Assembly: GCF_050320075.1 (NCBI RefSeq)
Contig: NZ_CP190018.1
Strand: one strand, 5' to 3'
Length of the DNA stretch: 64,000 nucleotides
Origin: Escherichia coli
GTDB lineage: Bacteria; Pseudomonadota; Gammaproteobacteria; Enterobacterales; Enterobacteriaceae
Below are positions 54,001-57,000 of this stretch, piece by piece (position 1 is the stretch's first letter; every line of letters begins with the position of its first letter). Position numbers: made by a program.

Positions 54001-57000
54001 AGAAGCTTATTAAATTCATTCAAATCCAATTTGTAAATATTTTTGGCAACATAAGCCTCAATTTTCAACTCAGCATCACAACATCCCTCTATGCAAGAAA
54101 TCACAAGTTGTTTTAATTCAGAATGTTGTAATAATATTTTTTCAGACGGTATTGCAGTTTTTCGTAAGGCTGACAATGATACATGACCAGTAGCTAAAAA
54201 GCTTCTTAATTGAAATTCAAAACAAAGGGAGTTTATAATACCAAGCAAACTAAAGAGCGAATCTTGCGAACCACTTTTATAATAGACCACCCCTAATGAA
54301 TTCCCTGCCAAAGAGTTAGGAGGTATTATCGTTGCAATCATTCGCCTTTTTTGACTCGGGCGTGAAATGTCACGCCATGCAATCCTTACGAAATTAGAAT
54401 TGGATAGAACCTTATCAATTTTTTTCGTTATTCTTAAGCTCTTCTCATTATGAAAATTATACCTCCCAATCATTTTTCCTTTAATGAATAATAATCCGCC
54501 GCCACTTTTTTGTGTCCAGTCACTACTACCAGTTTCATCTATTTCTCTTCCTGCCCATATCTCTCCATTTTTTTCCAGACTACCCCATGTTGGGTATCCC
54601 TCTTGCAGCTTTCTTAACAAATGAACGGCATGAACACCTTGAGATACCGGAATGCTAAGATATTGAGAATCTATACTAGACAAATCAAAAAAACCTAGTG
54701 ATTTAATATTTAAGTTTTTATCATACACACTAAGTTGAATATTATCATTAAGGGATTCACCTTTATTAAAAATAAAAGAACATGAAGAAACATCAGCACC
54801 GCCGAATAATTTAGCCTCAGCTGGATAATAATTTATGCAATCAATCCTCCCTGAATTAAAAAACTTTTCACGTAATATGTACGATTGTTCATCTGCGAAA
54901 AAAGATGCAGGCATAACTATAGCTACCAATCCATTTTTATTACATATTTCTAAGCTAAGTTCTGCACCAACACGTGAAAGATTAGTCCCCCACCCAGCAA
55001 ATTTACGCTTCGGCTGAGAATATGGCAATACTCTTGACAAATAATCATCAAACTCACGAAGAGAGTCTATATACATCGATTTCATAGATGGTTCAAAAAA
55101 ATCGAGCTCTCTAGAATCTGGTTTTATATTCTCCCAAGGCGGATTGGTTATAACACAATCAAAATAATCAACATATTTTTTAAATTCATAAAAAACATCA
55201 CTATTTTTTATAGTAATGTTAATATTTGCACCTGCTAACTTAAGTTCAGACAACGCATTTTTAGCATAAGTGAGGCCTGTATTTTCTATATCGAACAGAT
55301 AAACATTCCACTCTACATCTGGAAAACCATTTATCATCCATTGTTTAATAAGCAATGTAATAAGTCGACCATCCCCTGAAAATGGATCTGCGACATTATA
55401 ACTTTTTTTATCACAGGAATTTATCAATGGTAATAACTTCTCTATCATCAAAAGAGCTATTTTTGGATCTGTATAGTATTTACCTGTCGCTTTTTTAGTG
55501 AATTTTGTTGTCTCGTCCAAGGACAGTGAATTAATTAAATGGATATGTTTCATGTAAAATATCTCTTCCATTAATAATATGGATTATATCATTTAACTTG
55601 TGAACACTCAACAATAACTGTACATAAAAACAGTCATTAAAGATTTCCCCTAGAGTGAGCATCGCTATAAAAATTTAAATTAATTTTATCCTGCTCCGAA
55701 AGAAACAGTTATCATTTATTCCATAAAGAATAACTTGCTTTATAATCACTTTAAATATCGATATCAATTTTAATACTATGGTTACTTACCATATCAATAA
55801 ATAGCTTAACCCGTTATCTCGATACCCCTTAAGAACCCCTTCCGCAACTGCAACATAATCTACGCTCATCCACATGCCTGGCTTTAACTGTTCCTGATAT
55901 AAGTTGACAGTTTTCTGTCCGTAAAACGGTTGATGAACTTCATCGGGCGTTTTGTATTTCAATGCCAAATGTGACCGCTCATGGTTATAAATTGCCACGA
56001 ATTCTTTTACCATTTACCGGCCCTACGTCAGCTCTGCAGGACGCGAGAGTAAAAACTCATTTTCAGGATTCCGTTTATCCACTCAGCCTGCGCATTCTGG
56101 TGGCAGTTATAACCATTAGTCATTGAACAGGTTATTGATAAATAATTAAAAAACTCAGCTTTCTGGCTCGCCTGCTCAAGCTGTTCTTCAAGTTCCCTGA
56201 TTCTTTGCTCGGGTGTCAGCGGGACAGTCGCCAGAGCCACAGGCAGTCTCCTCTTTACCTGGTCAGGAAGTCCGGGGCTCCAGTCAAGCCGGCCATATTT
56301 ACGCAACCAGACAAGAACGGTGGAGCGCCCCTGAATGCCATAACTGCAGCCGGCCTGTTTATAAGTCATCTCGCCTTTTTCAACCTTCTCAACAACGGCT
56401 ATTTTAAAGGATAGAGGATAATCACGTTGAGTGCGTTTGAACCCAGACATCATCACGTTCTCCGGGTTTAAGTCAGGAACGTGTCATAGCTATTCAGGAC
56501 GGGTCACCGACACAAAAAAAGTCGCCCTTGAGCGACTCGATTTGCATACGGTATGGTGCGAAGGCCGGACTCGAACATGTGACTTAACCTCATGATTTAA
56601 AATTGTTAATAATAAACAATATCATCTTATACCAACACAGATACCAACACGAAAAATCACTGGTTTTCGGCATCGAACCAGGACAATCAGCTCCTGATTG
56701 AGATACCGAGCTCTGTTACTCGTCATCTTCCTCGACAGGCTTCATTGCATCAAGTAGTACTCGCACCATCGCGATAGAACCAATCCGGATAAAAGCATCT
56801 TCTCCATCTATATCTGTTAACTGATATCGCTCACTTGATGCCGGATAAGTGTGTCGATTTGCAGCTGTGTACTCTTTTGTACAGCCAGAATGTGGCTGAC
56901 TGAGGTGGAGCAGATAATGTCCCCGTTGACCACTTCCGGACGGGAGGCTGTGATTTCAGACATAATTGATATTCCTTTTTGCAGATAAATGAAAACGCCA

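What the first reader, a model, noticed from the sequence alone, without database searches (positions are those of the whole stretch)
55786..56456. Internally deleted IS3-family element at the junction between the R-M block and the tRNA-end repeat
An OrfA-like HTH ORF and the last 75 residues of an IS3-type transposase lie about 670 bp apart on the same strand, with the catalytic core missing. Decayed insertion sequences at island borders often mark past recombination joining separate acquisitions.
Basis: inference. Interest (0 to 1): 0.3.

Follow-up and report, generated by a model that had tools for sequence, protein, structure and literature searches.

The report
Dead ISSen1-like insertion sequence remnant
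This is an ordinary, immobile fragment of an ISSen1-like (IS3-family) jumping gene sitting just after the terminator that follows the leuX tRNA-end repeat in E. coli; the only unusual thing is that this type of element almost always lands exactly 14 bases after a transcription terminator.

Summary
The finding is real and essentially correct. Window 55885-56506 (minus strand, 622 bp) is a decayed copy of a 1,312-bp ISSen1-like IS3-family insertion sequence. It keeps the left inverted repeat, the first 102 OrfA codons and the last ~250 bp. About 690 bp are missing, including the A AAA AAG frameshift site and both catalytic aspartates.

It also has a 1-nt frameshift, a paired indel in the helix-turn-helix, a mutated or truncated right tip and no target-site duplication. 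It is about 10% diverged from every full-length copy found. It occurs once per genome at this one locus in about 609 of 5,426 complete E. coli genomes, and RefSeq already annotates it as a partial IS3 transposase.

Two details in the finding are wrong. The two ORFs are 14 bp apart, not about 670 bp. Only the first 41 or so of the "75 residues" are transposase; the rest is read-through into flanking DNA.

Its position has a specific explanation. In 36 independent insertions of this IS type, the left end usually lies 13-15 nt, most often exactly 14 nt, downstream of the G+C stem of an intrinsic terminator. Here that is the terminator after the leuX attR repeat. The missing duplication shows the R-M-side flank was changed later.

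Interest is low. The terminator rule is the one point worth following up.

The parts
55885..56506 (-). Whole ISSen1-like IS3-family remnant (622 bp; parent elements are 1,312 bp).
   Evidence: Global alignment to a full-length copy. blastn to L003 and L004 gives 91% and 86-89% identity for the two retained parts. The same remnant occurs at >=99% identity in 609 E. coli records.
56481..56506 (-). Left inverted repeat (IRL), intact, beginning 5'-TGACCCGTCCTGAATAGC.
   Evidence: Exact match, unique in the window. Identical to the outer 18 nt of all full-length copies.
56148..56453 (-). OrfA-homologous codons 1-102 (HTH plus leucine-zipper region). Carries a paired +2/-2 indel at about 56345 that changes QQR to GCS in the HTH, and 8 private non-synonymous against 3 synonymous changes.
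56137..56147 (-). Deletion junction: 11 nt (AATTATTTATC) of uncertain origin between IS position 359 and IS position 1060. About 690 bp are missing, including the A AAA AAG frameshift site (IS 407-413) and both catalytic aspartates.
55892..56136 (-). Retained 3' part of OrfB (IS 1060-1305): the third catalytic residue E and the C-terminal rve_3 segment.
55885..55910 (-). Degenerate right inverted repeat. The last 7 nt read ACAGTTA instead of CTAGTCA, so the terminal CA is lost and the transposase stop codon TAG is destroyed. Alternatively the element is truncated at 55892.
56507..56538 (-). Intrinsic terminator downstream of the leuX repeat: stem GTCGC/GCGAC, then T7. The 14 nt from the stem base to the IRL (TTTTTTTGTGTCGG) include the predicted 3-bp target CGG.
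   Evidence: Terminator scan. Same spacing as in other ISSen1-like insertions. The terminator follows intact leuX in island-free strains.
56554..56576 (-). Direct repeat of the leuX tRNA 3' end (attR of the ~76-kb leuX island): GTTCGAGTCCGGCCTTCG-CACCA.
   Evidence: Comparison with the annotated tRNA-Leu of the same genome. No complete tRNA in the window.
55878..55882 (.). CCTGG: empty target site for a second IS3-family element. Other strains carry here a 1,695-bp IS, or a 62-bp pair of its ends, flanked by a CCTGG duplication.
55786..56013 (-). Residues 1 to about 41 are the transposase C-terminus. Residues from about 42 to 75 are read-through across the mutated IRR into flanking DNA.
56028..56456 (-).

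Best explanation
An ISSen1-like IS3-family insertion sequence (1,312 bp, OrfA/OrfB with an A AAA AAG -1 frameshift, 3-bp target duplication) once transposed into the DNA just downstream of leuX. It landed, as this IS type usually does, with its left end 14 nt past the G+C stem of an intrinsic terminator and its transposase gene pointing the same way as the terminated transcript.

The copy then died. A deletion of about 690 bp removed the frameshift site and two of the three catalytic residues. A 1-nt deletion, a paired indel in the HTH and about 10% point divergence accumulated. The tip of the right inverted repeat was mutated or lost.

The DNA on its right side (the AT-rich spacer and the Eco31I-family R-M genes) is not the original target, because the 3-bp duplication is absent. 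A later rearrangement or replacement therefore took place at that end. The region next to the leuX terminator carries different restriction or defence genes in different strains.

The remnant is now an inert, vertically inherited marker.

Shown: identity, anatomy, damage, copy number, distribution and the terminator spacing. Inferred: the order of events and the nature of the rearrangement at the right end.
For: - Parent and boundaries.
- Family of the parent: NF033516 313.6 bits against a 160 cut-off; rve and HTH_28 domains.
- Frameshift site and DDE residues located in the parent and absent from the remnant.
- All five independent full-length copies examined have perfect 3-bp duplications (CCA, GAG, ATA, CCT, ATG). 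The remnant has CGG versus AAG.
- Relaxed constraint: 8 non-synonymous against 3 synonymous private changes in OrfA, plus the paired indel. Pairwise dN/dS is 0.28-0.49 for the remnant, against mostly 0.07-0.19 (three pairs 0.29-0.34) among intact copies.
- No copy in the 95-99% identity band among 5,426 E. coli genomes. There are 609 records at >=99%, and every listed one has a single place.
- RefSeq marks it as an incomplete IS3 transposase or HTH pseudogene.
- Terminator rule: in 36 distinct insertion sites, 26 have a terminator-like motif within 7-22 nt, against 1.1% of 20,000 random positions. In 19 the T-tract starts exactly 14 nt from the IRL, against 0.045%. The window copy has exactly this spacing.
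- Variable neighbours of the same terminator: hsdR/S in strain 54, mcrBC plus an integrase fragment in CP66-6, SNF2 plus a methyltransferase in strain 042.
Against: - No full-length copy closer than about 90-93% was found, so the exact parent and exact deletion endpoints are not known. The 11-nt junction segment is ambiguous.
- The 142-aa ORF is still open and 99.8% conserved among carriers. That could hint at retention, although recent common descent explains it equally well.
- The lack of a duplication could in principle result from point mutation of a 3-bp repeat rather than from rearrangement.
- No pre-rearrangement state of the right flank was recovered in any genome or metagenome contig.
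Confidence: 0.9

Rival explanations
1. One illegitimate recombination between two separate ISSen1-like copies produced the 'internal deletion'. One copy sat at the leuX terminator and one next to the R-M genes. The event removed the 3' part of the first copy, the 5' part of the second, and everything between them. That would explain the internal deletion and the missing target duplication in a single step, and would make the remnant a true joint between two DNA blocks.
For: No target duplication. An 11-nt junction segment that fits neither side well. The two halves differ somewhat in identity to reference copies: 91-92% on the left against 86-89% on the right.
Against: Both halves rank the reference copies in much the same order, so there is no positive sign of two ancestries. 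The right half also carries a frameshift and tip damage, which simple decay explains. No other ISSen1-like end exists in the window. No genome with the two-copy precursor was seen.
Confidence: 0.2
2. The fragment is a non-autonomous mobile derivative (MITE-like) of ISSen1 that full-length copies can move in trans.
For: It retains a perfect left inverted repeat and most of the right one.
Against: One copy per genome, always at this locus. The terminal CA of the right end is lost. There is no target duplication. The listed genomes that carry it hold no other ISSen1-like copy (places_in_record = 1).
Confidence: 0.02
3. The open 142-aa OrfA-derived protein has been kept as a DNA-binding regulator, for example a trans-inhibitor of incoming ISSen1-like elements, as OrfA proteins modulate transposition in other IS3 members.
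For: The ORF is open, its start and the left-end region are intact, and none of the listed carrier genomes holds a full-length ISSen1-like copy.
Against: - A private non-synonymous to synonymous ratio of 8:3, close to neutral, plus a paired indel that rewrites three residues of the HTH.
- The C-terminal third is an accidental fusion.
- The element lies directly behind a terminator.
- The apparent absence of co-occurring full-length copies rests on 39 listed rows. About 2 would be expected by chance (my own estimate from the counts), and the rows are phylogenetically confounded.
Confidence: 0.05

Closest known systems
ISSen1 (IS3 family; named by NCBI annotation as 'IS3-like element ISSen1 family transposase') and its E. 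coli, Klebsiella and Tatumella relatives.
   Same: About 90% nucleotide identity over both retained parts. Identical outer 18 nt of the left inverted repeat. 84-86% OrfA protein identity. Same gene order.
   Different: 690 bp shorter. No frameshift site and no catalytic aspartates. Frameshifted. Right tip damaged. No 3-bp duplication. Too diverged (about 10%) to be an isoform of any full-length copy seen. ISfinder itself could not be queried.
IS1397 / ISKpn1 (IS3-family elements that insert into REP/PU hairpin repeats) and class C group II introns (which insert after intrinsic terminators). Both are cited from general knowledge of the field.
   Same: Like them, the ISSen1-like elements choose a DNA hairpin context rather than a sequence, with fixed orientation and spacing.
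   Different: The target here is an intrinsic terminator, with the insertion point 13-15 nt past the stem. It is a DDE transposon, not a retroelement. No experiment was done, and the resemblance is a lead, not a membership claim.
[quoted passage not shown]
   Same: The same pattern: a terminator immediately upstream of the transposase side of the IS.
   Different: That work is a family-level statistic, strongest for IS200/IS605. It does not describe, in the passages read, a fixed 14-nt spacing or the ISSen1 group.

Membership tests
IS3 family (ISSen1-like) | Transposase recognised by the curated IS3 model (NF033516) above its cut-off. | tested here: met
   For the parental type: 313.6 bits against a cut-off of 160. 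The two remnant ORFs hit the same model only at its N-terminal (2-78; 55.4 bits) and C-terminal (344-369; 21.8 bits) ends, as expected for a deleted copy.
IS3 family (ISSen1-like) | Two overlapping frames (OrfA HTH, OrfB DDE/rve) joined by a programmed -1 frameshift at A AAA AAG. | tested here: not met
   Present in full-length relatives (IS 407-413; rve at residues 251-348). In the window copy the slippery site and the two aspartates are deleted. It descends from the family but is not a functional member.
IS3 family (ISSen1-like) | Imperfect terminal inverted repeats ending 5'-TG...CA-3'. | tested here: inconclusive
   The left repeat is intact. The right repeat is recognisable, but its last 7 nt are changed (ACAGTTA against CTAGTCA), so the terminal CA is gone.
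IS3 family (ISSen1-like) | 3-bp direct target duplication. | tested here: not met
   CGG on the left against AAG on the right. Five independent full-length copies all have perfect 3-bp duplications.
IS3 family (ISSen1-like) | Same IS 'species' as ISSen1 by ISfinder convention (about 95% nucleotide / 98% protein identity). | not testable with these tools
   ISfinder is not available. Against copies that NCBI names ISSen1 family, identity is 86-92%, so it is probably a distinct relative.
Non-autonomous IS derivative / MITE | Multiple copies at different loci with intact ends and fresh target duplications. | tested here: not met
   A single locus and a single copy per genome in 609 records. Damaged right end and no duplication.
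tRNA-associated genomic island border (leuX attR) | Direct repeat of the tRNA 3' end at the distal island end, with the intact tRNA and an integrase at the other end. | tested here: met
   A 23-nt repeat of the leuX 3' end at 56554-56576: 18 nt exact, then CACCA with one base missing. tRNA-Leu and a tyrosine recombinase lie about 76 kb away in the matching genome. The IS remnant lies outside the island, beyond the terminator that follows the repeat.

The most novel reading that the evidence does not exclude
ISSen1-group IS3 elements select their targets by structure. They insert in one orientation with the left end 13-15 nt, mostly exactly 14 nt, downstream of the G+C stem of Rho-independent terminators. 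This gives them a 'safe haven' that avoids genes and shields the transposase gene from read-through. It would explain why this remnant, and a second independently deleted copy at the other leuX-proximal terminator (L037/L075), sit where they do. It would also be a rule not yet described for a DDE copy-out/paste-in transposase. The stated probability combines that the preference is real (very likely) with that it is not already documented, for example in ISfinder notes, which I could not check.
Probability: 0.45. Interest if true: 0.5.

Novelty: already known. Interest (0 to 1): 0.15.

Why it matters
In itself it matters little. It is a dead insertion sequence that RefSeq already flags as a partial IS3 transposase, present in roughly one in nine complete E. 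coli genomes.

It is useful in two ways:
- As a stable lineage marker for the leuX-flanking region. Three states of the adjacent CCTGG site are seen: empty, a 1.7-kb IS, or a 62-bp end pair.
- As evidence that the DNA next to the leuX terminator has been exchanged, since different strains carry different restriction or defence genes there.

The broader point is the precise terminator-linked target choice of its living relatives. If confirmed experimentally, that would add a structure-guided targeting mode to the IS3 family. It would also help predict where such elements land.

Tried and rejected
- I first took TTTTTTG, next to the deletion, for the programmed frameshift site. Translation showed OrfA runs on to 133 aa, and the real site is A AAA AAG at IS 407-413.
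- I first attributed the 62-bp insert seen in Nissle/ST131 to ISEc12 (IS21 family), because a 39-nt exact match lies beside an ISEc12 copy. That was wrong. A metagenome contig and strain 9 carry a complete 1,695-bp IS3-family element with those ends at the same site.
- I looked for a closer full-length parent in 5,426 E. coli genomes, the plasmid set, 100,044 species-representative genomes and the metagenome contigs. Nothing was closer than about 93%.
- I looked for a second ISSen1 end in the window, which would indicate a composite transposon around the R-M genes. There is none.
- I looked for the pre-insertion or pre-rearrangement state of the right flank. The 313-bp spacer was found in 634 genomes, a set of about the same size as the 609 carrying the remnant, and only beside these R-M genes.
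- L078 appeared to be a diverged copy. It is in fact a joint between the remnant and a full-length copy from the aspV integrase site, either a real recombinant or an assembly chimera.
- Five literature searches for ISSen1 target preference or terminator-directed IS insertion returned only a general family-level preprint.
- An inverted-repeat search on the region alone did not reveal the ends. They became clear only by comparison with full-length copies.

Full report
**What is there**

The window matches the chromosome of E. coli YZLc1-3 (NZ_CP123240.1) at 100% over every stretch compared. On the minus strand, the ORF listing gives a 142-aa ORF at 56028-56456 and a 75-aa ORF at 55786-56013.

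The first ORF hits Pfam HTH_28 and the N-terminal 78 positions of the NCBIfam IS3 transposase model. The second hits only the last ~25 positions of the same model and of rve_3. RefSeq annotates the same stretch as 'IS3 family transposase, incomplete' or 'helix-turn-helix domain-containing protein, incomplete'.

However, the two ORFs are 14 bp apart, not about 670 bp; 671 bp is their combined span.

**Parent element**

A tblastn search of the OrfA part against plasmids found 84-86% identical proteins inside genes that NCBI names 'IS3-like element ISSen1 family transposase'. I took full-length copies from two plasmids and three chromosomal sites.

- All are 1,312 bp, apart from minor indels.
- They begin TGACCCGTCCTGAATAGC and end ...CAGGACTAGTCA.
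- They are flanked by perfect 3-bp duplications: CCA, GAG, ATA, CCT and ATG.
- Their fused OrfAB scores 313.6 bits on NF033516 (cut-off 160) and carries HTH_28, rve and rve_3.
- Translation of the three frames places the programmed -1 frameshift at A AAA AAG (IS 407-413). It also shows the DDE residues in WVADITY, HHSDRG and NALAER.

**Anatomy of the remnant**

Global alignment to a full-length copy gives:

| IS positions | Window coordinates | Note |
|---|---|---|
| 1-359 | 56506-56148 | left end and OrfA |
| junction | 56147-56137 | 11 nt of ambiguous origin |
| 1060-1312 | 56136-55885 | 3' part of OrfB and right end |

- About 690 bp are missing. The loss covers the frameshift site and both aspartates, while the glutamate survives (NAQAEW).
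- By accident the deletion joins OrfA in frame to the OrfB tail. That is why the first ORF runs to 142 aa.
- A 1-nt deletion near 56061 then breaks the frame, and the 75-aa ORF restarts at an internal methionine.
- The parental stop codon TAG lies inside the right inverted repeat. In the window the last 7 nt read ACAGTTA instead of CTAGTCA, so the stop is lost. The ORF then reads about 34 codons into flanking DNA. Only the first ~41 of the '75 residues' are transposase.
- A paired +2/-2 indel rewrites three residues of the HTH (QQR to GCS).
- Changes private to the remnant in OrfA are 8 non-synonymous against 3 synonymous. Four of six intact copies have no private non-synonymous change.
- Pairwise dN/dS is 0.28-0.49 for the remnant, against mostly 0.07-0.19 among intact copies.

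This is the signature of neutral decay.

**Distribution**

- In 5,426 complete E. coli genomes the remnant occurs at >=99% identity in 609 records, including Nissle 1917 and ST131 strains. Every listed record has one place.
- No copy falls in the 95-99% band. Full-length relatives at 80-95% occur in about 299 other records.
- The R-M-side spacer (55572-55884) is found in 634 genomes, a set of about the same size.
- Scans of species-representative genomes and metagenome contigs found no closer full-length parent. The best was 93% over the left part, in Klebsiella spallanzanii.

The remnant is therefore old, single-copy and immobile.

**Surroundings**

ARAGORN finds no tRNA in the window. In the matching genome tRNA-Leu (leuX) and a tyrosine recombinase lie about 76 kb further on, next to ahr/yjgR. 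Window 56554-56576 repeats the leuX 3' end: 18 nt are exact, followed by CACCA with one base missing. That makes it the distal repeat (attR) of a leuX island whose last genes are the yeeS-yeeU-cbtA type.

The repeat is followed by a terminator, GTCGC...GCGAC plus T7. In island-free strains the same terminator follows the intact tRNA.

The IS remnant begins exactly 14 nt after the terminator stem, so it lies outside the island. On its other side come a 313-bp AT-rich spacer and then Alw26I/Eco31I/Esp3I-family methyltransferase and endonuclease genes and mcrBC.

Beyond the same terminator other strains carry different genes:

| Strain | Genes next to the leuX terminator |
|---|---|
| strain 54 | hsdR/hsdS |
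| CP66-6 | mcrBC plus an integrase fragment; homology to the window ends at the 3' end of mcrC |
| 042 | an SNF2 protein and a methyltransferase |

The remnant thus marks the boundary between conserved tRNA-terminator DNA and a strain-variable block of restriction genes.

**Why it is there**

While collecting full-length copies I noticed that several sit just after a terminator. Exact-pattern scans with the left repeat returned 12 loci from species-representative genomes and 54 from metagenome contigs. After removing duplicates there are 36 distinct left flanks.

| Measure | IS flanks (n = 36) | Random positions in the same loci (n = 20,000) |
|---|---|---|
| Hairpin plus T-tract within 7-22 nt of the left repeat | 26 (72%) | 1.1% |
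| T-tract starting exactly 14 nt from the repeat | 19 (53%) | 0.045% |

These figures use a strict automated criterion. By eye, about 31 of the 36 are terminators with a spacing of 13-15 nt. The orientation is always the same: terminator, left end, transposase.

- The rule holds for relatives down to about 77% identity (L066, L077).
- The window copy obeys it exactly.
- A second, independently deleted copy sits 14 nt after the other leuX-proximal terminator in contigs L037 and L075.

The left junction of the remnant is therefore very probably the pristine insertion junction, with CGG as the target triplet. The right flank starts AAG, so the duplication is missing. Either the right tip, the duplication and the adjoining DNA were replaced later, or a single illegitimate event between two copies made both the internal deletion and the new joint. 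I cannot separate these. The two halves rank reference copies similarly, which gives no positive support to the two-copy model.

**Comparison with what is known**

- The element descends from the IS3 family but fails the tests for a functional member. The frameshift site and DD residues are gone, the right tip is damaged and there is no duplication.
- It is about 10% from anything NCBI labels ISSen1, so it is probably a distinct relative. ISfinder could not be consulted.
- Literature searches for ISSen1 returned only typing and resistance papers.
[quoted passage not shown] It interprets this as limiting transposase expression. I found no description of a fixed spacing for this IS group.
- From general knowledge, the nearest parallels in behaviour are the IS3-family members IS1397 and ISKpn1, which insert into REP hairpins, and class C group II introns, which insert after terminators.

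**Verdict**

This is an ordinary, already annotated IS3-family remnant. Interest is low.

The most novel reading not excluded is that its living relatives use precise, structure-guided terminator targeting. The computational evidence here is strong, but the rule is untested experimentally and may already be recorded in ISfinder.

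Noticed in passing
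window 56507-56538; loci L003, L004, L007, L017-L028, L029-L082: ISSen1-like IS3 elements insert in one orientation with the left end 13-15 nt, mostly exactly 14 nt, after the G+C stem of intrinsic terminators. In 36 distinct sites, 19 have the exact 14-nt spacing, against 0.045% of random positions.
   Followed up: yes
window 55878-55882 (CCTGG); L002 6228-6294; L074 1858-3552; NZ_CP048304.1 4761668-4763362: Three nucleotides from the remnant's right end lies a polymorphic insertion site for a second IS3-family element. It is empty in the window and in O55:H7 DEC5E. A complete 1,695-bp IS with a CCTGG duplication sits there in strain 9 and in one metagenome contig. Only a 62-bp palindromic pair of that IS's ends remains in Nissle 1917, ST131 and about 534 genomes. 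Similar ~60-bp end pairs occur elsewhere, for example L016 1503-1562 with duplication CTTAA, so the end pair may also behave as a MITE.
   Followed up: partly
L012, L013, L014 versus window 47970-56510: The DNA just beyond the leuX terminator is strain-variable and holds different restriction or defence genes: type I hsdR/S; mcrBC plus an integrase fragment; SNF2 plus a methyltransferase; and here Eco31I-family R-M plus mcrBC. Homology between the window and strain CP66-6 stops at the 3' end of mcrC (window 50881) and resumes at the terminator.
   Followed up: partly
L037 5039-5737 and L075 (metagenome contigs): A second, independently deleted ISSen1-like remnant sits 14 nt after the terminator that directly follows leuX on the island side (...GAGGTCTTTTTTTATGCCTG|TGACCC). 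The leuX neighbourhood has therefore been hit by this IS type at least twice.
   Followed up: no
L078 (metagenome contig) 177-798: The left part equals the window remnant at the leuX terminator. The right end and flank equal the full-length copy inserted in an integrase gene near tRNA-Asp (L008, duplication CCT). This is either a real IS-mediated chromosomal rearrangement or an assembly chimera.
   Followed up: no
one search hit table (E. coli genomes): All 39 listed genomes that carry the remnant have no other ISSen1-like copy, while about 299 other genomes carry full-length copies. This may be mutual exclusion, but the sample is small and confounded by phylogeny.
   Followed up: no
NZ_CP123240.1 4488641-4503493 (outside the window, inside the leuX island): The leuX island of the matching genome carries a dndBCDE / dptFGH phosphorothioation defence system and many IS fragments.
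   Followed up: no
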